Origin: Thermoplasmata archaeon
Lineage (GTDB): Archaea; Thermoplasmatota; Thermoplasmata; Thermoplasmatales; ARK-15
NCBI GenBank assembly: GCA_039794005.1
Contig: JBAMMA010000019.1
Span: forward strand, 1 to 64,000
Reading direction: 5' to 3'
DNA: 64,000 bases
Position numbers and translations under genes: made by a program. How positions within the stretch are numbered: the first letter of the stretch is position 1; the number at the start of each line of letters is the position of its first letter. The notes beneath the pieces were generated by a model. It was not told where the DNA came from and ran no database searches. It worked only from the letters and a program-made list of their open reading frames with translations. Positions 235 to 57,139 of the stretch are shown here, piece by piece.

Positions 235-2139
235 CTAAGATAAAGTTTCCCTTATTTCAACGGCCATTCCCTTTTTCATGTTTTTTATTTCTTTATATGA
301 AAACAATGTCTGCCCTACTCCTATAAGATCATCATTCTCGTTTACAATTAATACTTCATCTTTTGGTCTCAAATTATGATCCATTTCAATTATGAATTTT
401 CCAAAAACGTTTTTACCTTTTCTGTTAAATTCTTCACTTTCATTTGAAACAACTACTCTCAGCTCAGGATATTTTAAGTTTTGGTGTAAAATCTTTCCCC
501 CCTCGATTTTCAATGTATATAAACCATCATTCCTAACGGACAAAATATGCTTTCCATTTCTTAAAATATTCCTTATCATTCCTGTATTTTTGCTCTTTAT
601 GAATTCAATCTCACCGTCGAATAAATATTTACATGAATTATATCCAAACTGATAATCTGCTATTGCACATCTTATTATCAAATCTGCATTCCTTTTCTCA
701 TTTTCAAAATATTTTGAAAAAATATCAATATTTTCTGGTATTCCTTCAATCCATGATATTAAATAATCAAAATCCAAATGTTCTATCATTTCATTTAGAT
801 TGTCTTCATTTTTTATATTTTCTATTCTAGGAGATTGCATGAATGGATATATATACAGATATTCATAAGGTATGAAACCGAACATTGTTTTTACCAAAAA
901 ATGAGCATCTATTTCTCCAAACAATTTCTTGATTTTATCAATATCATTTTCATCAACTATTATGCAACTTTTTCTCCTGTAATTATAATTATTGTAAAAT
1001 CTTTTTTCTACCAATTTAAATATTGGTCTATTAAGAGTCTCGACACCCGTATAAAATACAGGGTGATTTCTATAAATCGGTTCATGTTCTTCCAATATGT
1101 GTGAATATTTCTCCAATACTTTTAATCCCTTATATAAAGATGGGTGGCATCTGGATCTTTCTTCAACGTATTCCCAAAGGCTTTCTTCCCTTATAAAAGA
1201 TTTTATTCTCCTTATTTCATCCATTGCCATGTATAAATTGTGCCTTGAAAGAATGTTTATTATTTCATCTTCTTCCATTTCCATTATTTCCTTTGGTGTA
1301 TATTTTTCTATATAAGGGCTAACATATGGAAAATATTCTATATCCTTTAGATACCTGGTACCATCTGGGAAAATTATCCTTTTATCCCTGGCGTATTTTA
1401 CATAAGATGAAGAATCAAAAAAATCTATTCCAAGTAAAATTGCCATTGAAAAAAACATTGGATGACCCGCACCAAATAAATGAATGGGTTTTGAAAAATC
1501 TACGCTTAATCTTGAATTTATTATTATTTCAATGATTTCAGAATATCTGTAAGATTCCAGGAGAGGCACTACACCTCCAATTGGATAATATTCAAGGTCC
1601 AGGGAATTCATCATTTCGGCAGATTTCTTTCTGAGATCGTTGTATATAGACCCTTGTATAGGCCCAGCAATATCCCTTCCTGCAATGTCCATTGCTTCAA
1701 CGGCCCTTTTATATGTTTCTAAAACGGCTTCTTTTGCTTTTTCATAGCTATCTTCGGGGGTGGAAAAGATGTCCAAAATGGTTATGATATCACTCTTTAT
1801 ATTTTTTTGAAATTCAACAATCTCTTTATTTTTTATTTCAACATCTCCATAAACATAGCTTTGAAATGTTCCGGAATCAGTCATTATTATTCCGTCAAAG
1901 TTAAGCATGTTTTTCAAACCTTCATTTAATGCCCTCTCTCTCAATTTTTTATCTTTATATATAATGTAAGAATTTGTTATTATTGCGTTAATTCCAAAAA
2001 TATTCTTTATTTCTTCAGGAGAAATTACAATAATGTTTGGATTAATAACAGGCATGAGAAGAGGGGTCTCAACACTCTTCCCATGCACTTCAAACTTTCC
2101 TATTCTGGCAAGGCCATCTCTATGTTTAATTTCAAACAT
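235..2139 (-). CDS. tgtA: Archaeosine tRNA-guanine(15) transglycosylase (ArcTGT) with C-terminal PUA domain
   Basis: RDGLARIG, ETPxxMPV, IMTDSGTFQ, GPIQG, IGGVVP, HLFGAGHP, DFFDS motifs; C-terminal PUA-like domain (GKNVFGKF...RPKDEVLIVNE...GVG). Confidence 0.95.
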   Translation of the reverse strand: MFEIKHRDGLARIGKFEVHGKSVETPLLMPVINPNIIVISPEEIKNIFGINAIITNSYIIYKDKKLRERALNEGLKNMLNFDGIIMTDSGTFQSYVYGDVEIKNKEIVEFQKNIKSDIITILDIFSTPEDSYEKAKEAVLETYKRAVEAMDIAGRDIAGPIQGSIYNDLRKKSAEMMNSLDLEYYPIGGVVPLLESYRYSEIIEIIINSRLSVDFSKPIHLFGAGHPMFFSMAILLGIDFFDSSSYVKYARDKRIIFPDGTRYLKDIEYFPYVSPYIEKYTPKEIMEMEEDEIINILSRHNLYMAMDEIRRIKSFIREESLWEYVEERSRCHPSLYKGLKVLEKYSHILEEHEPIYRNHPVFYTGVETLNRPIFKLVEKRFYNNYNYRRKSCIIVDENDIDKIKKLFGEIDAHFLVKTMFGFIPYEYLYIYPFMQSPRIENIKNEDNLNEMIEHLDFDYLISWIEGIPENIDIFSKYFENEKRNADLIIRCAIADYQFGYNSCKYLFDGEIEFIKSKNTGMIRNILRNGKHILSVRNDGLYTLKIEGGKILHQNLKYPELRVVVSNESEEFNRKGKNVFGKFIIEMDHNLRPKDEVLIVNENDDLIGVGQTLFSYKEIKNMKKGMAVEIRETLS

Positions 2140-3144: not shown

Positions 3145-3929
3145 TCTATCACCTTCTTTTCCTTGAGATGTTCTATAATCTTTCTCACGGCCTCTCTGTA
3201 ATCTCCGGTGAATATCTGACCCTTTTCCCTCTTAGGGGGAGGATACATTTTCACAACTCTTGTAGGAGATCCATTAAGACCAAACTTACTCTTATCTCCA
3301 TCGATATCGTCAGCCTTCATCCATATGTAAGGCTTGTTCTTTGCCTTTATTATGCCACTCATGGTGGGATTTGAATATTCAAAATTAGGAGGAGGTATGC
3401 ATGCCACCAATGCTGGCAACTTCATCTCAATGGTTCTGTATCCATCTTCCAGTAGACTTTTTACTATGATGGAATTATTCTCTATTTTTTCCACCTTTTC
3501 CACATAACTCGTATGAGGTATACCAAGCCATTGTGCTACCTGTGGTCCTATATGACCTGTATCGCCGTCTGTAGCCTGGTTTCCTGCAAAAATAATGTCA
3601 TAAGGTCCAGTCTTTTGTATTGCCAAGCTAAGAGCATAGGATGTTGCCAAAGTATCGGATCCTCCAAAAGCCCTATCTGAAATGTGATATGCTTTATCAG
3701 CACCCAATGCCAGGCACTTTTGAAGAGCAGACTTTGCCTGCTCTGGTGCTAGCGTCATAACTGATACTTCTCCTCCATATTGTTCCCTTATTCTGAGTGC
3801 TTCTTCCAAGGCGTACTGGTCGAACATATTCAGTATGCTCTGTATACCTTCCCTTATCATGACACCCCTTTCATCAAACTTAACATCTGAAGTATCTGGA
3901 ACCTGTTTTACGAGTACCAATATTTTCAT
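3141..3929 (-). CDS. etfB: Electron transfer flavoprotein beta subunit
   Basis: MKILVLVKQVPD, ALEEAL, GADKA, AFGGSDTLATS, QATDGDTG, GLNGSPTRV. Confidence 0.96.
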   Translation of the reverse strand: MKILVLVKQVPDTSDVKFDERGVMIREGIQSILNMFDQYALEEALRIREQYGGEVSVMTLAPEQAKSALQKCLALGADKAYHISDRAFGGSDTLATSYALSLAIQKTGPYDIIFAGNQATDGDTGHIGPQVAQWLGIPHTSYVEKVEKIENNSIIVKSLLEDGYRTIEMKLPALVACIPPPNFEYSNPTMSGIIKAKNKPYIWMKADDIDGDKSKFGLNGSPTRVVKMYPPPKREKGQIFTGDYREAVRKIIEHLKEKKVIE

Positions 3930-3939
3930 TCAAAATCAC

Positions 3940-5136
3940 CTATTTGTATGAAATGTATTCCTTTCCCAACAATTCCCTGGATACTATAACCTTCATTATT
4001 TCCTTTGTTCCCTCGGCCCATCCAAATGACCTTATTGCCCTCCAGGCCACCTGGTCAACGCACTCCTTTGAATACCCAAAAGCACCCTGCCACTGCATTA
4101 CATCATCTATGGCAGCACAAGCCCATTCCTGTGCAAACATTTTTGCCATGGCTATTGCCTTACTTACCTCAAACCTAGATGCTTTCCCGAGCATTTCCTG
4201 ATGGTATAACCATAATGCGTAATAAGCTCCCCATCTCAAATAACTCAATTTAGTATAATGTTCAGCAAGTTTAAACTGCAGGGCCTCAAATTTCGCAAGT
4301 GGCAATCCAAATGCCTTCCTCTGCTTCATGTAATTCATTCCTCTCTCGAGTGATTTTAGTCCTGCAGCAGCAGATATTACGGCAATTAATCCCCTTGCAT
4401 ATTCATATCCTTCATGAACTATGTAAAATCCCTTTCCCTCTTGTCCAATAATGTAATGTGGTGGTATTTCAACATTATCAATGGTGAATCCACCCGTAGA
4501 AATCCCTTCCCTGCCTAAGTCATCAACATATTGAGGAATTATTCCCTTTGATTGTAATGGTAGATAGAACAATGTCATTCCCTTTGCTCCCAATTCCGGG
4601 AACTGTTTTGCAATTGTTATGTGTCCTCCTCCTCTGGTATAAGCTTCCCTTACACCGCTTATATACATCTTTTCCCCATTTACAATATATTTGTTTCCCT
4701 CTTTTCTTATTGTGGTTTTTGTTCCCAAAACATCTGAACCGGCATCAGATTCTGTTGTGGCAATACCTAAAAACCATTTACCCTTTGTAACATTGGGCAG
4801 AATCTCTTTTTTTGCCTCTTCTGTTCCATATTTATTAAAAACATGACCCCATGATGCCTGGACCAAATAAAATACGGGTATAGAACCAGTTGGATCCGCC
4901 TTTGACAATTCCTCCGCTATTATACCAGCAGTAACTGGATCAAATCCCTGTCCACCATATTCCGGTGATACAGTGGGTGCGATCAATCCAAGTTCGGCCA
5001 TTCCCTCGATTACTTCATCGGGTATTTTGTGGGTTTCTTCCATCTTCAATGCAATAGGCTCAATTTTCTTCTTGGCAAAATCCCTAACGCTCTCTCTAAT
5101 CATTTCCTGTTCTTCAGTAAACGTAAAATCGAGCAT
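3940..5136 (-). CDS. Acyl-CoA dehydrogenase
   Basis: FTEEQEMIRESVRDFA, EYGG, TESDAGSD, NGEKMYIS, RKAFG, QWQGAFGY, AEGT (catalytic Glu); directly upstream of etfBA. Confidence 0.95.
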   Translation of the reverse strand: MLDFTFTEEQEMIRESVRDFAKKKIEPIALKMEETHKIPDEVIEGMAELGLIAPTVSPEYGGQGFDPVTAGIIAEELSKADPTGSIPVFYLVQASWGHVFNKYGTEEAKKEILPNVTKGKWFLGIATTESDAGSDVLGTKTTIRKEGNKYIVNGEKMYISGVREAYTRGGGHITIAKQFPELGAKGMTLFYLPLQSKGIIPQYVDDLGREGISTGGFTIDNVEIPPHYIIGQEGKGFYIVHEGYEYARGLIAVISAAAGLKSLERGMNYMKQRKAFGLPLAKFEALQFKLAEHYTKLSYLRWGAYYALWLYHQEMLGKASRFEVSKAIAMAKMFAQEWACAAIDDVMQWQGAFGYSKECVDQVAWRAIRSFGWAEGTKEIMKVIVSRELLGKEYISYK

Positions 5137-5217
5137 TTTTTCACCATTTGGAAAATTGCATGTGTATATTTAAACTTGTTTAAAAATAAAAATATAGAAA
5201 TTAAAATTTAAAAAAAA

Positions 5218-5619
5218 TTATTCATTTGGAACAAATTTATAACCATATTCTATTATACCGGCCTCGTCCTCTTCCCTTATCCTCCTAAAGGCAATTTTTA
5301 CTGGCATACCTATTTTTACTTCCTTTGGATCAATGTCAACTAACTGACCTGTTACTTTAACTCCAGAATCCATTTCTGCAATTATGAAAACGTAGGGTTT
5401 CAAGAACTTAAAATCGGGGAGATCTTGGTAAACTACGGTATATGAATAAACTTTTCCGCTATTTTTTATCTCCACTTTTTCCATTTTCCCCACGGATTCC
5501 CTGTGGCATTGTGGGCATACTTCTCTTGGAGGGAAATATATCCTTCCGCATTTTGGACATTTTGTTCCTACGAGCCTGTATCTGTGCTGAAACTCTCTCC
5601 AATACCTAGGTATCGTCAT
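5218..5619 (-). CDS. DUF35-family Zn-ribbon/OB-fold scaffold protein of the thiolase-HMGCS complex
   Basis: CPKCG..FPPREVCPQC Zn ribbon, GKVYSYT, IGMPV, YGYKF; adjacent to thiolase and HMGCS. Confidence 0.93.
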   Translation of the reverse strand: MTIPRYWREFQHRYRLVGTKCPKCGRIYFPPREVCPQCHRESVGKMEKVEIKNSGKVYSYTVVYQDLPDFKFLKPYVFIIAEMDSGVKVTGQLVDIDPKEVKIGMPVKIAFRRIREEDEAGIIEYGYKFVPNE

Positions 5620-6789
5620 TTATACCACCTCCAATATATGGGATACGGAAACAGAACCTGTACCAGCTATATTTACTGCCAATGCCTTGTCGGCATTTGG
5701 AACTTGCCTCTTCTCTGCCTTGTTTCTAAGTTGTATTACAGACTCAACAATCTGACCTATGCCTGTTGCTCCCATTGGATGTCCTTTTGCCTTTAAGCCT
5801 CCAGATGTGTTAATTGCAATCTTTGAATCGTGGTGTCCATACCCTTCCATTATATATTTACCTGCCTTCCCCCTTGGGAATATACCTATCTCTTCCAAGA
5901 TTAATAGACCCATTATTGATGATGAATCATGTACCTCCACAACCTTGATTTTATTTATATCCAACTTTGCCATTTTAAGAGCCTTTTCAGTTGAAATTCT
6001 TACAGATTTTAAATTTAAAATATTATCCCTATCCTGAAGAAGCATAAAGTCTGATGATATGGCTGAACCTGAAATCTTGATTTTAACCTCAGGTTTGATT
6101 TCTCTGACCTTTTCCTCACTTGCAAGTACTATTGCTGCAGCTCCATCGGAATATGGAGCCATGTCAAGCATTGTAAGTGGTTCTGCCACCAATGTTGAAT
6201 TTAATACATCTTCTATCTTAATTTTATTCCTGAAATGAGCATATGGATTTTCAGAACCATGTTCATGCGATAAAACGGGTAGTATTGCAATCTCCTCCCT
6301 TTTTGCATCATATTCATGCATGTATCTCCTTGCCATAAGACCTTGTAATGCTGCGAGAGTACCTCCATGAAACAGTTCCCATTCCTGGTCTACTTCACCA
6401 GATACTACTTCTGCCTGATCTTCCATTGAGACATCTGTTAACTTTTCAACTCCACCAACCAATACTAAATCATATAACCCCGATGCAACCGAAATATATC
6501 CTGCATGGACTGCTGCACCACCACTAGCACTTCCATTCTCAATCCTCATTGCGGGTATATTGTTATAAGATAGACCTGAAAAATCCGATATTAATGATCC
6601 AATATTATCTTGATATATTGTACTACCAGCACTCATATTTCCACCAAATATAGCCTGTATATCCCTTGAATATATGTTTGCATCTTCGATTGCCTTTAAC
6701 CCAGCTTCCACAACCAATGATCTAAGTGATTTTTCCCAATGCTCTCCATATTTTGTTTGTCCAATTCCAATTATGTAAACATCCCTCAT
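5620..6789 (-). CDS. Archaeal acetoacetyl-CoA thiolase homolog (SCP2-thiolase type) with catalytic Cys residues replaced
   Basis: VYIIGIGQT, GGVEKL, SDGAAA, EVHD, NTSGGLKAKGHPMGATG; start reassigned to ATG at 6789 after GGGTGA SD. Confidence 0.9.
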   Translation of the reverse strand: MRDVYIIGIGQTKYGEHWEKSLRSLVVEAGLKAIEDANIYSRDIQAIFGGNMSAGSTIYQDNIGSLISDFSGLSYNNIPAMRIENGSASGGAAVHAGYISVASGLYDLVLVGGVEKLTDVSMEDQAEVVSGEVDQEWELFHGGTLAALQGLMARRYMHEYDAKREEIAILPVLSHEHGSENPYAHFRNKIKIEDVLNSTLVAEPLTMLDMAPYSDGAAAIVLASEEKVREIKPEVKIKISGSAISSDFMLLQDRDNILNLKSVRISTEKALKMAKLDINKIKVVEVHDSSSIMGLLILEEIGIFPRGKAGKYIMEGYGHHDSKIAINTSGGLKAKGHPMGATGIGQIVESVIQLRNKAEKRQVPNADKALAVNIAGTGSVSVSHILEVV

Positions 6790-52487: not shown

Positions 52488-53375
52488 TTATTTTTTATTT
52501 TTATTTTTGTAAAATATTGCTGAAATGATTCCGATTACTACGATTACTGCAATGGCAACATAAATGTAATTCATATAATTAACTGGACTGTTGGAATAAA
52601 CCAATATAGAATTATTTGTGGCTATTGCATATCCTGGTGTTACTATTGTACTTGATGGGTCATAGATTATCTTTAAGGAATAATCGTTTAACGTGGCATT
52701 TAACAACAAGTATGATGATGTATTGTAATAAAATATTGTTGTGTTTGTTGATGGATTATATATTTTATTCCATTGACTCAATGGTTTTGAAAGGGCAGAG
52801 AAGTTGATTGTATCTATTTCATTATTGTTTATGAATTTAAATATAAATGACGATTTATCGTTCATATCTGAAAGTATGTCATTAAGATCATATTCCTCAT
52901 TGTTATAAGAAACGTCAAAATGTCCTTTAATATTTATTGACCTCCATGCCATGTCTATTTCTGTACCATTGCTTGTCTTGTTAAATATTCCCGTTAACCA
53001 TAGATCAATTGACGTATTTTTATATATTATCATTACTGTTGAGTTTGCGTGTTCGATCAAAGAGAATTTTATTGTCATGTTGCTTATTGAAACATTATGG
53101 TATCTAGATTTTATATATCCTTCCATGAATTTTATTGCCCAATCTGATGGTTTGTTAAACGTTAAGGAGAATGAAACATTGTATGATGTATTGATCAAGC
53201 TCTCTAGGCTACCATTTGGATATGTAAATACCAAAACTGCGACCGAATTTAGAGATATGTGAGCCATTTTTTTATCTGGATATAAATATATATTAAGATA
53301 TGATGCGTGGGATAATGGTATGAATGCCACTAAGCCAAGTATCATAACAACCAAATATGCAAATATCTTTTTCAT
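52488..53375 (-). CDS. Secreted, C-terminally anchored surface (glyco)protein of unknown function
   Basis: Signal peptide (..SHA), many N-x-S/T sequons, C-terminal TM and Lys tail. Confidence 0.75.
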   Translation of the reverse strand: MKKIFAYLVVMILGLVAFIPLSHASYLNIYLYPDKKMAHISLNSVAVLVFTYPNGSLESLINTSYNVSFSLTFNKPSDWAIKFMEGYIKSRYHNVSISNMTIKFSLIEHANSTVMIIYKNTSIDLWLTGIFNKTSNGTEIDMAWRSINIKGHFDVSYNNEEYDLNDILSDMNDKSSFIFKFINNNEIDTINFSALSKPLSQWNKIYNPSTNTTIFYYNTSSYLLLNATLNDYSLKIIYDPSSTIVTPGYAIATNNSILVYSNSPVNYMNYIYVAIAVIVVIGIISAIFYKNKNKK

Positions 53376-54441
53376 GATTTTTAAATCATTTGTTTTAATT
53401 TAAAAATTTTATGGTATACTCCGTATTGTTAAATACCTTTTTTATTAAATTTTAATTCTTTATATATATAATTAAAATTATAGTAATAAAAATGATCTAA
53501 AATTATACATCTTTTGTGAATATAGAAAAAAATAAAAGGATTTGTAAAAATACAACGATTTTTTTGGTAAATAGGGTTTTTATATTAAATAAATTGATGT
53601 TTTTTAATATAGAGAAAAATCTTGATCATGAAATGAAAATATAGGAAAACCATCTTAATATTCATAAAGTTATTCAAATTTATTAAAAAGTTAGGAAAAT
53701 AGGTATTTTCCATTCAGAAAGTTTGAATTGTTCGTTAATATACTATAAAAAATAATAGTCAACTTCATGCCTATTACATATGTTTAAATTTTAAAAGGAG
53801 TAAGAGCACTTTTCATATTAAATGGTGAAAAATAAACAGGAATGTAAAAATGATTTTCGATATTAATGAAAAATTAAACTTTAAAATCTTTGAAATATAA
53901 TATTTACATAAAAATTCAATTAATATTAATTTTTCATTATATATTAAGCACAAATAGAAATTACTATAATTTAATAATGTCTTTAAAATAAAAATTTCAA
54001 ACCATTAAGTTACAAATTATCGACTTCAAGGCAAATAATGTTCATAAATTTTGTTTTAAACATTCTTAATAAAATGATTGAAAAAATTTTTTGTTAACAA
54101 TGGAAATAATCTAATTTAAAATATGCATGTGAAAGGTAAAATTGATCATTTAACTATCTATTCTTGTTTTAAAGTAAACAATTCCTCAGCTCTATATATT
54201 TCCTCTATTAATTTTAATTATAAAAACATAGGTTTTGTAATGTTTATCATTTCTTGTATTGTTTAGTGTAATTTATCTGAAATAAGAAAATCATGAATTA
54301 CTAAATTCATCCTTTGAATAATAATCTTTTACAGCGAAATTCACCTTTCAAATGTTTTCTTAAAATTGTATTCAATTTCCAAAAGCGATTTTTTAAAAAT
54401 CTATTAAGTTAAAGATTTTAAAAATCATAGGAATCGTATTT
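53376..54441. other. 1.07-kb very AT-rich gene-free region
   Basis: No ORF of 60 aa or more in the track; by far the longest intergenic stretch in the window. Confidence 0.8.
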
Positions 54442-55440
54442 TCAAATATTATTTTTGAATAACAGCATTGCATCACCAAAACTGAAAAATCTATATTTAT
54501 TTTCAACTGCCACTTTATATGCATTCATAGTTCTCTCATAACCACCAAATGCTGTCACGAGCATAATAAGACTTGATTTAGGCATGTGAAAATTGGTAAT
54601 TATTGCATCTATACCACTTTGGAATTTATGACCTTCCATAATAAATAAATTTGTTTTAAATGTTCCCGGAAATACGATATTGTCTTTTGAAGAAGATTCC
54701 AATGCCCTGACAACGGTTGTTCCTACTGCAAATAATCGTCCCTTCCTACTGTTTATTTTTTCAGCTGTTTCTTCAGGAATATGATAATATTCTTCGTGTA
54801 ACGTCTTATTTACAATTTCTTCATATTCTAAATGTTTGAAAGTTGAGTATGATATATGCAATGTTAAATATTGAATATCCACACCTTTTTCTTTTATCTT
54901 TTTCAGTAATTCCTCAGTAAAATGTAAACCGGCAGTTGGTGCTGCTACAGAACCTTCTATAGCTGAGTAAACTGTTTGATACATCTCTGGATTTTTTATG
55001 TCTTTTTTAATATATGGAGGTGTAGGAATCCTCCCATATTTTTCTATAATCTTTTCAATATCGATACCAAAATCTACTTTTGCTATTCCTCCATTTTTTT
55101 CTAAAATTTTACCCTTGAATTCGTTTATTTCAATTGTAGTCCCCTCTTTTACATTTTTTCCTTTAACTAGAAAAACAGGATATTCTTTCTTTTCGATTAA
55201 AAGTAATTCCACCTTACCACCCGTGGATTTTTTACCAAATAATCTTGCTTTAATTACCTTTGAATTGTTTAATACCAATACATCCCCTTTCTCCATGTAG
55301 TTTATTATATCTTTGAATATTCTATGCTCAATATCATTACCTTTTAATACCATTAATTTACATTCATCTCTGGGATATACAGGTTCCTGTGCAATTAACT
55401 CCTTTGGAACGGAAAAATAATATTTTTCCAAAATATCCAT
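54442..55440 (-). CDS. queA: S-adenosylmethionine:tRNA ribosyltransferase-isomerase
   Basis: LIAQEP..PRD..KL, GDVLVLNNSKVIKARL, PPYI, YQTVY, GSVAAPTAGLHF, TLH, HEE, AVGTTVVRALE, TNFHMPKSSL, YRFFSFGDAM. Confidence 0.96.
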   Translation of the reverse strand: MDILEKYYFSVPKELIAQEPVYPRDECKLMVLKGNDIEHRIFKDIINYMEKGDVLVLNNSKVIKARLFGKKSTGGKVELLLIEKKEYPVFLVKGKNVKEGTTIEINEFKGKILEKNGGIAKVDFGIDIEKIIEKYGRIPTPPYIKKDIKNPEMYQTVYSAIEGSVAAPTAGLHFTEELLKKIKEKGVDIQYLTLHISYSTFKHLEYEEIVNKTLHEEYYHIPEETAEKINSRKGRLFAVGTTVVRALESSSKDNIVFPGTFKTNLFIMEGHKFQSGIDAIITNFHMPKSSLIMLVTAFGGYERTMNAYKVAVENKYRFFSFGDAMLLFKNNI

Positions 55441-55478
55441 GTAAAAAATTTAATATTTAGTTTATTTTAAATTTTTGG

Positions 55479-56456
55479 ATGGAATTCAAAAAAGTAAAAG
55501 ATTTGAAAATATCCGTTTTAGGACAGGGAACCTGGCAAGGTTCAATGAAAGGTTGGGGGAAAGATTATTCTGAAAAGGATTTCATAGAAAGTGTTAAAAA
55601 ATCAATTGAATTGGGCGTAAATTTCTTTGATACAGCAGAAATATATGGTAATGGATATTCAGAAAAATTGCTAGGTAAAGCAATATCAGGATACAACAGG
55701 GAAGATTTAATAATAGCAACTAAATTGGCCCCATTTAATATTGAAAATTGGGAAAAACATTTGGATAGAAGCCTAAAAAATTTAAATACCAAATATATAG
55801 ATATATATCAATTACATTGGCCTACTCCTTTTTATATCAATTTTAACAAATATTTAAAGGAAATGGAAAACGCAATCAAAAATGGTAAAATTAGATATAT
55901 TGGAGTTAGCAATTTTTATTTAAAAGACATAGAAAAATTGGAAGTCGATATTATATCAAACCAGATAAAATACAACATTTTAAAAAAGCAACTAAATGAT
56001 AATGAAATTGAGATTTTAAATAAAAAGAATATTTTAGTTATTGGATATTCTCCGTTGGAGATGGGATTACTTTCAGGCAAATATAATATTAATGAAAAAC
56101 CAAAGGGATATCTGAGAAAGAGAATTCCATACCTAAAAGGTGAAAATTTCAGAAAATTTAATGAAATTTTGACATTTTTAAAAGATCTTTCAAATAAATA
56201 TGATTATTCTTTGACTCAAATATCATTAAAATATTGCATATTGAAAAATGTTGTACCTATTTATGGAAGTAAAAACGGTAAACAGTCTGAAGATAATGCA
56301 CTTTCAATAAATGTACCGTTAAAGCCTGAAGATGTTAATAAAATAGATGAACTTGTATATTCTATGCATTTAAAGAATCTAGATGAAGATTGGTCTAAAT
56401 TAGCAAGAAATTTGCCTTTATTTATTCAAAAATTGACTTTGAAATATTTTATTTAA
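55479..56456 (+). CDS. Aldo/keto reductase
   Basis: LGQGTW, FFDTAEIYG.G.SE, IATK, SL..L...YIDIYQLHWP, IGVSNF, YSPL..GLLSGKY. Confidence 0.93.
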   Translation: MEFKKVKDLKISVLGQGTWQGSMKGWGKDYSEKDFIESVKKSIELGVNFFDTAEIYGNGYSEKLLGKAISGYNREDLIIATKLAPFNIENWEKHLDRSLKNLNTKYIDIYQLHWPTPFYINFNKYLKEMENAIKNGKIRYIGVSNFYLKDIEKLEVDIISNQIKYNILKKQLNDNEIEILNKKNILVIGYSPLEMGLLSGKYNINEKPKGYLRKRIPYLKGENFRKFNEILTFLKDLSNKYDYSLTQISLKYCILKNVVPIYGSKNGKQSEDNALSINVPLKPEDVNKIDELVYSMHLKNLDEDWSKLARNLPLFIQKLTLKYFI

Positions 56457-56578
56457 TTCTCTATCTCATGGGATTTAGATTTTAATTTTAAAAAAATATA
56501 TGATTATATATATTCTATATATCTGAAATAAAAAATTTTTAAATAAAATGGGATGATAACTAAATTGGTGTTTTTAGA

Positions 56579-57139
56579 ATGTTTGAAATTAGATTCCATG
56601 GAAGGGGAGGACAAGGAGCTGTTATAGCTTCTGAAATTCTTGCTACTGCAGCTTTTCTCGAGGGAAAATATGTTTCATCATTCCCATATTTTGGTGTAGA
56701 AAGAAGAGGTGCACCAGTTACAGCATTTACAAGAATAGACACAAAACCTATAAGGGCAAAGTACCAGATTTATAACCCAGACCATGTAGTCGTTCTGGAT
56801 CATTCTTTAATGAAACTTGTAAATGTTACGAGTGGATTAAAAAAGGATGGATTGATCTTAATAAACACCATAAAAGATCCATCATCGTTTAAAAATTTAA
56901 ACATAAAATATTTGGCAACTGTAAACGCTTCTGAAATTGCATTAAACCATAGCCTTGGTTCCCATTCTGCACCTATTGTTAATACTGCGATATTAGGAGC
57001 GTACGCGAAAACCAGTGGACTGGTAAAAATAGATTCCATTAAAAAAGCTATCGAGGAAAATTTGAGTGGATTTATAGATGAAAATAAGGCCGCTGCTCAG
57101 GAGGCTTATGAAATGGTGAGGGTGATTACAAATGAATGA
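56579..57139 (+). CDS. porG: Pyruvate/2-ketoisovalerate:ferredoxin oxidoreductase gamma subunit
   Basis: [33 protein letters not shown]. Confidence 0.93.

What the first reader, a model, noticed from the sequence alone, without database searches (positions are those of the whole stretch)
54442..55440. Intact bacterial-type queA in an archaeon: possible queuosine pathway alongside archaeosine
Seen: a full-length QueA with all hallmark motifs and no frameshift, in the same window as an ArcTGT. Known: QueA converts preQ1-tRNA to epoxyqueuosine at G34 in bacteria. Most archaea route 7-deazaguanine to archaeosine at G15 and are considered Q-less, apart from a few lineages. Inference: this Thermoplasmata lineage may make both G+ and Q (or oQ) from a shared preQ0 pool, probably after gene transfer, or QueA acts on a different substrate. 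No bacterial-type tgt, queF, queG or queH lies in this window.
Basis: partly seen in the sequence, partly recalled or inferred. Interest (0 to 1): 0.75.

Follow-up and report, generated by a model that had tools for sequence, protein, structure and literature searches.

The report
Bacterial-type queuosine genes in an archaeon
This archaeon carries an intact QueA together with the other two tRNA-level queuosine enzymes, a gene set already reported for its relatives, but its whole family lacks the enzyme that normally supplies the precursor preQ1.

Summary
Window 54442-55440(-) encodes a full-length QueA (NCBIfam equivalog 385.9 bits against a 324 cut-off). The ArcTGT at 235-2139(-) is also real.

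The same 1.10 Mb genome has a bacterial-type G34 Tgt and a QueH on contig 6, plus QueC, QueD, QueE, RaSEA and an ArcS-like gene. All lie among archaeal housekeeping genes.

The genes are lineage-wide. Over 41 genomes of the order, QueA is in 34, Tgt in 33 and QueH in 26, and synteny is conserved within the family.

Novelty is low. Castelle et al. 2021 (PMC8204110) already list QueA, QueH and Tgt in 34 archaeal genomes, including Aciduliprofundales.

The new point is that QueF is missing. It is in 0 of 16 genomes of this family, while QueC is in 15 of 16 and Tgt, QueA and QueH in 16 of 16. Families f5, f3 and f4 of the same order have QueF.

Most likely Q or oQ is made at G34 from salvaged preQ1. 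Less likely, an unrecognised preQ0 reductase supplies it. No tRNA chemistry exists for any of these archaea.

The parts
54442..55440 (-). queA: tRNA preQ1(34) S-adenosylmethionine ribosyltransferase-isomerase, 332 aa, intact
   Evidence: PF02547 388.2 bits, full length. NF001140 385.9 against 324. PDB 1vky 9.1e-88. 71 invariant columns across 10 QueAs of the order, among them the PPYI, AAPTA.LHF, AVGTT, TNFH.P.S and S.GDAM stretches.
235..2139 (-). ArcTGT (tgtA): tRNA guanosine(15) transglycosylase with C-terminal PUA-type region, 634 aa. This is the archaeosine branch that uses the same 7-deazaguanine chemistry.
   Evidence: TIGR00432 539.1 against 350. PUA-type matches at residues about 520-630.
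55479..56456 (+). Aldo-keto reductase gene, divergent neighbour of queA, 38 nt away. Listed only because it was tested and rejected as a QueF substitute. It is not part of the pathway.
   Evidence: AKR families, all below equivalog cut-offs; beside queA in G000 and G010 but not in G002, G003 or G004; found in 10/15 f1, 8/8 f3, 7/7 f7 and 0/7 f5, and it lies next to queA in G001 too.
53376..54441 (.). 1,066-bp AT-rich spacer (18.7% GC) without an ORF over 47 aa, downstream of queA. Unexplained, and probably not part of the pathway.
   Evidence: GC, ORFs; 0 Rfam matches in 53000-56700; no direct repeats. In G004 and G010 the same two genes are 43 nt apart, and in G003 146 nt.

Best explanation
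The gene is a working QueA in a vertically inherited, bacterial-type queuosine module (Tgt, then QueA, then QueH). It runs beside the native archaeosine pathway in a small-genome Thermoplasmata archaeon related to Aciduliprofundum.

Proposed mechanism:
1. The PUA-less Tgt exchanges G34 of tRNA-Asp, Asn, His and Tyr for preQ1.
2. QueA transfers the ribosyl part of SAM onto the aminomethyl group, giving epoxyqueuosine.
3. QueH reduces that to Q.
4. Separately, QueD/QueE/QueC make preQ0, which ArcTGT, an ArcS-like protein and RaSEA turn into G+15.

In this family the two branches are not joined, because QueF (preQ0 to preQ1) is missing. preQ1 most likely comes from outside through a transporter that is not yet recognised. 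A non-homologous reductase is the less likely source.

Shown: gene identity, intactness, catalytic residues, co-occurrence, vertical inheritance and the QueF gap. Inferred: enzymatic activity, the presence of Q in tRNA, and the source of preQ1.
For: QueA identity.

Tgt: TIGR00430 428.2 against 306.75; best PDB match is the queuine tRNA-ribosyltransferase 2ash at 1.4e-112. In 9 of 9 order Tgts these are invariant: TDSGGFQ (Asp), FDS (Asp) and the Zn ligands C299/C301/C304/H330. All nine have GGL-x-[M/I]-GE, a bulky residue where eukaryotic queuine-type enzymes have Gly (residue roles from PMC5699537, passages read). The pocket does not differ between QueF-plus f5 and QueF-minus f1.

QueH: PF02677 191.6 bits; aligned to a solved QueH (9dco, 2.2e-32) with the CCAP, C..C and CGC cysteines kept.

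Substrate tRNAs: Asn-GTT, Asp-GTC, His-GTG and Tyr-GTA all carry U33-G34-U35.

Co-occurrence: f1 has Tgt, QueA and QueH in 16/16. f5 has Tgt, QueA, QueH and QueF in 7/7. f3 has Tgt, QueA, QueF and QueG in 8/8 and QueH in 0/8. In f7 no Tgt, QueH or QueF was found in 7 genomes; its only PF02547 match is G027's weak QueA-like one.

Native location: all contigs are 29-34% GC. Neighbours are AlaRS, TFIIB, L7Ae, PolB and eIF2-gamma. The purC-like / membrane protein / queA / OFOR order holds in the f1 genera g1, g3 and g4; g2 keeps only queA beside OFOR. The AlaRS / M50 / tgt order holds in g1, g3 and g4.

Possible benefit: NAU is 78-83% of NAY codons, and NAY is 18.7% of codons in 554 long ORFs, read by single GUN tRNAs.

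preQ0 and G+ branch: QueC 270.6 bits, QueD 77.7, QueE (TIGR04349 235.1, below its 300 cut-off), RaSEA 348 against 212, ArcS-like 253.4 (below 440).
Against: No preQ1 source was found.
- QueF: 0 hits with PF14489, tblastn (best E 0.085, which is an ABC ATPase), or an order-specific HMM on the six-frame translation (best E 0.17).
- QueF in the family: 0/16 with TIGR03139.
- Transporters: no YhhQ/QPTR, QueT or HlyIII in G000.

G000 is 87.2% complete. No expression data and no tRNA chemistry exist. QueE and the ArcS-like gene score below their curated cut-offs. FolE/MptA was not searched. G000's Tgt has Val where the 8 other order Tgts have Cys (the Z. mobilis Cys158 position). The significance of that is unknown.
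Confidence: 0.7

Rival explanations
1. The pathway is fully endogenous. An unrecognised enzyme, not homologous to QueF, reduces preQ0 to preQ1, either as the free base or on the tRNA after Tgt inserts preQ0. G+ and Q would then share one preQ0 pool.
For: f1 keeps preQ0 synthesis (QueC 15/16) and all three tRNA-level genes (16/16), yet has no known preQ1 or preQ0 transporter family in G000. A lineage that makes preQ0 and still depends on outside preQ1 is an odd arrangement.
Against: No candidate was found.
- The AKR beside queA has the wrong distribution: 10/15 f1, 8/8 f3, 7/7 f7.
- The 198-aa protein next to queD has no cysteine and no family match.
- Neighbours of queE, queC, tgt and queH show no oxidoreductase shared across genera.
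- Q-precursor transporters are known to arise in many superfamilies (PMC11130926, passages read), so a missing known transporter is weak evidence.
Confidence: 0.18
2. In this family the module is a relic. After QueF was lost, Tgt, QueA and QueH no longer make Q and are on the way to decay.
For: QueF is not found in 0/16 genomes, and no preQ1 source was identified.
Against: All three genes are intact in 16/16 genomes across four genera. Their scores equal those of QueF-plus relatives: QueA E-values 4.1e-119 to 6.5e-116 in f1 (G000 387.9 bits) against 2.1e-126 to 6.1e-122 in f5; Tgt 418-489 bits against 448-465; QueH 189-205 against 192-201. Catalytic and Zn residues are invariant. The '1 TGA' flagged in the g2 Tgt match is, in G002, the ORF's own stop codon.
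Confidence: 0.04
3. The enzymes act on something other than G34 of the GUN tRNAs. Examples are another tRNA position, another RNA or DNA, or a different 7-deazaguanine base, so the product is not queuosine.
For: G000's Tgt has Val at the Z. mobilis Cys158 position. TGT relatives have been recruited to DNA modification in bacteria and phages (PMC5699537). No preQ1 source is known here.
Against: Tgt, QueA and QueH all exceed equivalog or family cut-offs for the canonical enzymes. The Tgt pocket (L231-type Leu, bulky residue at 233, Glu235-type Glu) is the same in f1 and in the QueF-plus families. The Val variant was seen only in G000's Tgt among the four f1 Tgts aligned. The co-occurrence is that of the Q pathway: QueA with Tgt, plus QueH or QueG.
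Confidence: 0.06
4. queA is bacterial contamination or a chimeric join in a metagenome bin.
For: None beyond the bacterial-type family assignment. GC is somewhat low around the gene: 27.1% for the 54-56 kb bin and 30.2% for queA itself.
Against: Contamination estimate is 0.29%. All 20 contigs are 29-34% GC. The gene sits in a 76 kb contig with ArcTGT and archaeal 2-oxoacid:ferredoxin oxidoreductase genes. The same gene order is found in G003, G004 and G010, and queA lies beside the OFOR genes in G002 too. QueA is also present in two closed genomes of the order.
Confidence: 0.01

Closest known systems
[quoted passage not shown]
   Same: Same family, length and conserved motifs over the full length; above equivalog cut-offs.
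   Different: The host is an archaeon that also makes archaeosine. The protein is a little shorter than the solved chains (332 aa against 345-347). No activity has been measured.
Archaeal QueA/QueH/Tgt sets reported by Castelle et al. 2021 (PMC8204110; passages and Table S5 read)
   Same: The same three bacterial-type genes. Table S5 lists QueA in 3 Aciduliprofundales genomes. Two of these match, in genome size and gene coordinates, the closed genomes G019 and G023 of sister family f5. The window's genome is a further member of that order-level group.
   Different: In DPANN the three genes are co-localised (the paper's text); here they are scattered over two contigs. In the passages and table rows that I read, the paper does not treat QueF or the preQ1 supply, and it reports no tRNA analysis. 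I did not read the whole text.
Bacteria with bTGT but without QueF, which salvage preQ1 (PMC5699537; PMC11130926)
   Same: The same gene pattern downstream of preQ1: Tgt plus QueA plus an oQ reductase, and no QueF.
   Different: These archaea keep preQ0 synthesis, which G+ needs, and lack the two characterised transporter families as well as HlyIII.
Crenarchaeal QueF-like archaeosine synthase (PMC5485725; search listing and abstract start only)
   Same: A T-fold QueF relative in archaea that acts on a 7-deazaguanine.
   Different: Not relevant here. The QueFs of f5, f3, f4 and f2 carry the catalytic Cys and the E-[LS]-K-S-x-K-[LM]-[YF] NADPH motif, and the two scored (G019 of f5, G040 of f3) exceed the preQ1-synthase equivalog cut-off. 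The motif definition is recalled. f1 has no PF14489 match of any kind.

Membership tests
QueA (PF02547 / TIGR00113 / NF001140) | Full-length match above the curated equivalog cut-off | tested here: met
   NF001140 385.9 against 324; TIGR00113 359.6 against 267.45; PF02547 positions 1-322 of 322.
QueA (PF02547 / TIGR00113 / NF001140) | Conserved sequence blocks shared with structurally solved QueA | tested here: met
   HMMER alignments to 1vky and 1yy3. 71 invariant columns over 10 order QueAs.
QueA (PF02547 / TIGR00113 / NF001140) | SAM-dependent ribosyl transfer onto preQ1-tRNA, giving oQ | not testable with these tools
   This needs an enzyme assay or complementation of an E. coli queA mutant.
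Bacterial-type tRNA-guanine(34) transglycosylase (TIGR00430) | Equivalog-level match, no PUA or C1-C3 domains, catalytic Asp pair, Zn site CxCxxC...H | tested here: met
   369 aa; 428.2 against 306.75. Best PDB match 2ash at 1.4e-112. D91, D261, C299, C301, C304 and H330 invariant in 9/9.
Bacterial-type tRNA-guanine(34) transglycosylase (TIGR00430) | preQ1-type pocket (Leu231-type Leu, bulky residue at 233) rather than a queuine-type pocket (Gly233) | tested here: met
   GGLSMGE in G000; GGL[SLCK][MI]GE in all nine. Residue roles from PMC5699537. One departure: Val at the Cys158 position in G000.
Epoxyqueuosine reductase QueH (PF02677) | Family match and conserved cysteines | tested here: met
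   191.6 against 23.5. Aligned to solved QueH 9dco with the CCAP, C..C and CGC cysteines kept. No NCBIfam model matched at E<=0.01.
Complete de novo bacterial queuosine pathway | QueF (preQ0 reductase) linking preQ0 to preQ1 | tested here: not met
   G000: none. Family f1: 0/16, while QueC is 15/16. Present in f5 7/7, f3 8/8, f4 1/1 and f2 1/1.
Queuosine salvage (preQ1 import) | A known Q-precursor transporter (QPTR/YhhQ PF02592, QueT PF06177, HlyIII PF03006) | tested here: not met
   No match in G000, which is 87.2% complete. MFS and ABC candidates were not evaluated. QrtT (PF12822), UPS (PF07168), QueK, QueL and Qng1 were not searched.
Queuosine pathway (any route) | Substrate tRNAs with U33-G34-U35 | tested here: met
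   tRNA-Asn, Asp, His and Tyr.
Archaeosine pathway (ArcTGT + ArcS/RaSEA) | ArcTGT with PUA domain; RaSEA; ArcS | tested here: met
   ArcTGT 539.1 against 350. RaSEA 348 against 212. ArcS-like 253.4, below the 440 cut-off, so that one part is inconclusive.

The most novel reading that the evidence does not exclude
The family holding this window (16 species-level genomes, four genera) makes preQ0 and keeps Tgt, QueA and QueH under selection, but has no QueF. It may therefore harbour a new, non-homologous way to make preQ1. That could be a free-base nitrile reductase of another fold, or reduction of preQ0 after its insertion at position 34. The same genomes would give a defined set for finding it by gene-content comparison with the QueF-plus families of the order.
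Probability: 0.18. Interest if true: 0.65.

Novelty: new member of a known kind. Interest (0 to 1): 0.36.

Why it matters
Textbooks and recent papers still divide the two modifications cleanly: queuosine in bacteria and eukaryotes, archaeosine in archaea. That wording appears in the introductions quoted.

The gene content here says otherwise for a whole order of Thermoplasmata and many other families of the class. It predicts tRNAs carrying both G+15 and Q34. Nobody appears to have tested this chemically. My searches found no report of Q detected in an archaeal tRNA.

The test is easy, because the sister family appears to include cultured Aciduliprofundum strains.

The family-wide loss of QueF, with the rest retained, is a clean natural experiment. 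It bears on whether free-living thermophilic archaea depend on preQ1 released by neighbours, or whether a missing enzyme exists.

Tried and rejected
1. AKR next to queA as a substitute reductase: rejected. It is adjacent only in G000, G001 and G010. Its distribution is 10/15 f1, 8/8 f3, 7/7 f7, 0/7 f5.

2. Weak tblastn hit of f3 QueF on C12 (E 0.085): it is an ABC-transporter ATPase.

3. The 198-aa ORF beside queD: no family match at E<=0.01 apart from one chance-level hit, and no cysteine.

4. Neighbours of queE (sugar isomerase-like, SIS, AMMECR1, amidohydrolase): nothing relevant.

5. QueG in G000 and in f1: none over the cut-off.

6. Radical-SAM inventory of G000: 17 proteins scanned, from 18 matches. 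It gave QueE, RaSEA, Tes, TYW1, Elp3 and others, and nothing labelled queuine lyase. I do not know QueL's family accession, so QueL is untested.

7. Rfam over 53000-56700 at E<=1: 0 matches. No direct repeats and no terminator-like sites. Sigma-70-like promoter sites are no more frequent than in shuffles, 26 against 28.6.

8. Expression: no RNA holder listed.

9. Earlier findings of this scan: nothing to show.

11. Literature search with lineage names returned nothing on queuosine among the 25 papers listed.

12. PMC4075521 holds both 'queuosine' and 'Aciduliprofundum' once each; I did not read it.

Full report
OBSERVATION

The ORF at 54442..55440 on the minus strand is 332 aa long, starts with ATG and has no internal stop. 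It matches the Pfam QueA model from its first to its last position (388.2 bits). It passes two curated NCBIfam QueA equivalog cut-offs, 385.9 against 324 and 359.6 against 267.45. It aligns over its full length to the three solved QueA structures; the best is 1vky at 9.1e-88. It is 634 aa long, scores 539.1 against 350 on TIGR00432, and has a PUA-type C-terminus.

THE REST OF THE PATHWAY IN THE SAME GENOME

The window is contig 19 of a 1,099,501-bp assembly of 20 contigs. The assembly is 87.2% complete with 0.29% contamination, and every contig has 29-34% GC. It fails.

- Tgt. Contig 6 carries a 369-aa, PUA-less Tgt. It passes the G34-Tgt equivalog cut-off (428.2 against 306.75). Its best solved match is the queuine tRNA-ribosyltransferase 2ash (1.4e-112).
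- QueH. The same contig carries QueH (191.6 bits). It keeps the cysteines aligned with solved QueH.
- preQ0 synthesis. QueD and QueC lie side by side on contig 11. QueE is on contig 18; it scores 235.1 on TIGR04349, below that model's cut-off of 300.
- Archaeosine branch. RaSEA is present (348 against 212), and so is an ArcS-like gene (253.4, below 440).
- Not found: QueG, QueF, YhhQ/QPTR, QueT, HlyIII.
- Substrate tRNAs. tRNA-Asn, Asp, His and Tyr all have U33-G34-U35, the recognition element of bacterial Tgt (the element as stated in PMC5699537).

NOT AN ARTEFACT, AND NOT RECENT

The three bacterial-type genes sit among archaeal housekeeping genes: AlaRS, TFIIB, L7Ae, NDK, and 2-oxoacid:ferredoxin oxidoreductase.

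I searched 41 genomes of the order (G000 plus 40 relatives).

| Gene | All 41 | f1 (own family, 16 with G000) | f5 (7) | f3 (8) | f4 (1) | f7 (7) |
|---|---|---|---|---|---|---|
| QueA | 34 | 16 | 7 | 8 | 1 | 1 (weak QueA-like match) |
| Tgt-G34 | 33 | 16 | 7 | 8 | 1 | 0 |
| QueH | 26 | 16 | 7 | 0 | 1 | 0 |
| QueF | 17 | 0 | 7 | 8 | 1 | 0 |
| QueG over cut-off | 8 | 0 | 0 | 8 | 0 | 0 |

Family f2 (1 genome, 86% complete) has QueH and QueF but no QueA or Tgt. Family f6 (1 genome, 80% complete) has QueA, Tgt and QueH but no QueF.

Gene order is conserved within f1. The purC-like / membrane protein / queA / oxidoreductase order holds in genera g1, g3 and g4; g2 keeps only queA beside the oxidoreductase genes. 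The AlaRS / M50 peptidase / tgt order holds in g1, g3 and g4. Both orders differ in f5 and f3.

In a quick ML tree of 48 QueAs, the 15 sequences of the order lie on one side of a branch with SH-aLRT 94. The nearest outsiders are Methanoperedens and Woesearchaeota QueAs. Three kinds of rows were left out:
- the divergent QueA-like protein of G027;
- 46 of 70 Bacillota rows, dropped by random subsampling;
- one locus without a usable ORF.

ACTIVE-SITE CHECK OF Tgt

In an alignment of nine Tgts (four from f1, two from f5, one from f4, two from f3), these are invariant: the TDSGGFQ aspartate, the FDS aspartate, and the Zn ligands C299, C301, C304 and H330. The specificity segment reads GGL-x-[M/I]-GE in all nine. 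A bulky residue therefore sits where queuine-using enzymes have glycine (roles as given in PMC5699537). There is no pocket difference between QueF-plus f5 and QueF-minus f1, which argues for the same base substrate in both. G000 alone has Val where the other eight have Cys (the Z. mobilis Cys158 position).

THE GAP

QueF is missing from G000 by four methods:
- PF14489;
- tblastn with f5 and f3 QueFs (the best hit, at E 0.085, is an ABC ATPase);
- an HMM built from ten QueFs of the order, run with --max on the six-frame translation (best E 0.17);
- TIGR03139.

Across all 16 genomes that the collection holds for the family (completeness 76-98%), QueF is 0/16. QueC, a gene of similar size, is 15/16, missing only from an 82%-complete genome. 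Incompleteness therefore cannot explain the QueF result.

The QueFs of the families that have one are genuine preQ1 synthases. The two scored, G019 (f5) and G040 (f3), reach 107.5 and 138.1 against 86.9 on TIGR03139. All ten keep the catalytic Cys and the NADPH motif (the motif definition is recalled).

Family f1 thus makes preQ0 for archaeosine and keeps Tgt, QueA and QueH intact in four genera, at scores equal to those of its QueF-plus relatives. It has no known way to make preQ1.

Bacteria with Tgt but without QueF are taken to salvage preQ1 (PMC5699537). Q-precursor transporters have arisen in several unrelated superfamilies (PMC11130926). Salvage through an unrecognised transporter is therefore the simplest reading. 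I give a non-homologous reductase about 0.18. The candidates I could test were rejected: the neighbouring aldo-keto reductase, and an unknown ORF next to queD.

WHY THE CELL MIGHT KEEP IT

In 554 long ORFs, NAU makes up 78-83% of NAY codons and NAY is 18.7% of all codons. Each pair is read by a single GUN tRNA. Q34 is thought to modulate translation of NAU codons (PMC10570037, abstract start seen).

WHAT IS KNOWN

Castelle et al. 2021 (PMC8204110) state that they found the complete or partial bacterial queuosine pathway (QueA, QueH-like, Tgt) in 34 archaeal genomes, 12 of them DPANN.

Their Table S5 has 27 QueA rows:
- 3 Aciduliprofundales
- 1 Thermoplasmata
- 1 Methanomassiliicoccales
- 1 MGII
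- 2 Hydrothermarchaeota
- 4 Methanomicrobia
- 1 Halobacteria
- 1 Bathyarchaeota
- 13 labelled Woesearchaeota or Pacearchaeota

Two closed genomes of sister family f5 have the same lengths and the same QueA and QueH coordinates as the two Aciduliprofundum genomes in their Tables S1 and S5. The published record therefore covers this order.

In an even sample of the class, 95 of 251 genomes have a PF02547 match at E<=1e-40, and 57 of these score 370 bits or more. Two of the 95, G240 and G129, are unpublished genomes with weak matches; only this tally rests on them.

I found no paper reporting Q detected in archaeal tRNA, and none noting the QueF-less state of this family. These searches cover open-access text only. 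bioRxiv supplements and most subscription-journal papers were not visible to me.

VERDICT

This is a real, intact, native QueA in a near-complete queuosine module that runs beside archaeosine. As a gene-content finding it is already in print for the order, so it is a new member of a known kind.

What remains open and testable:
1. whether these archaea really carry Q34;
2. where the window's family gets preQ1.

Noticed in passing
window 53376-54441: A 1,066-bp spacer of 18.7% GC with no ORF over 47 aa lies between queA and the downstream membrane-protein gene. In G004 and G010 the same two genes are 43 nt apart, and in G003 146 nt. There are no Rfam matches and no direct repeats.
   Followed up: partly
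L036:3567-4562 (G027, family f7); also f14, f17, f29: A divergent QueA-like paralogue. It scores about 150-250 bits on PF02547, mostly from model position about 19 onward, though some of the weaker matches are near full length. In the one sequence read (G027) the TNFH and FGDA motifs are missing. In G027 no Tgt or QueH was found. It probably has a different function.
   Followed up: no
L048:2293-3489 and 3539-4558 (G019, family f5): In f5, queA lies directly beside the archaeal SAM synthetase gene on the same strand. This is a plausible functional pairing, since QueA consumes SAM. It is also visible in Castelle's Table S5 rows. It is not so in f1.
   Followed up: no
families f3 versus f1/f5: Within one order, the last step is encoded by QueG in f3 (8/8 over the cut-off, QueH 0/8). 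It is encoded by QueH in f1, f4, f5 and f6. This is a non-orthologous swap inside an archaeal lineage.
   Followed up: partly
L001:1465-2574 (G000 contig 6), alignment A1: G000's Tgt has Val (LDYVLPY) where the eight other order Tgts have Cys (LDYC.PY). This is the Z. mobilis Cys158 position, one of two positions that differ between preQ1-type and queuine-type enzymes. The other position (233) stays bulky (Met).
   Followed up: partly
G000 contig 19, 76027-76119 (outside the window): tRNA-Tyr(GTA) carries an intron next to the anticodon loop. Without the intron option ARAGORN calls it tRNA-His. If Q34 is made, its timing relative to splicing would be of interest (compare PMC12313893, listing only).
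   Followed up: no
L011:4387-5004 and 5047-5376 (G000 contig 6, about 2 kb from queH): The first of two adjacent ORFs matches the MFS_1 family. The second, 109 aa with a hydrophobic sequence, was not scanned. They may be one split or frameshifted MFS transporter. An MFS member transports preQ0 and preQ1 in Bartonella (PMC11130926). I did not test whether this one is conserved in f1.
   Followed up: no
L030:1256-3668 and 4653-6065 (G019, around queF): Several genes flanking queF in f5 have no counterpart anywhere in G000. By their sequences they look like a phosphorylase-like protein, a small membrane protein, an Ldh_2-like dehydrogenase and a glycerate-kinase-like protein. These names are my reading of the sequences; no family scan was run. 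It looks as if f1 lacks the whole block, not just queF.
   Followed up: no
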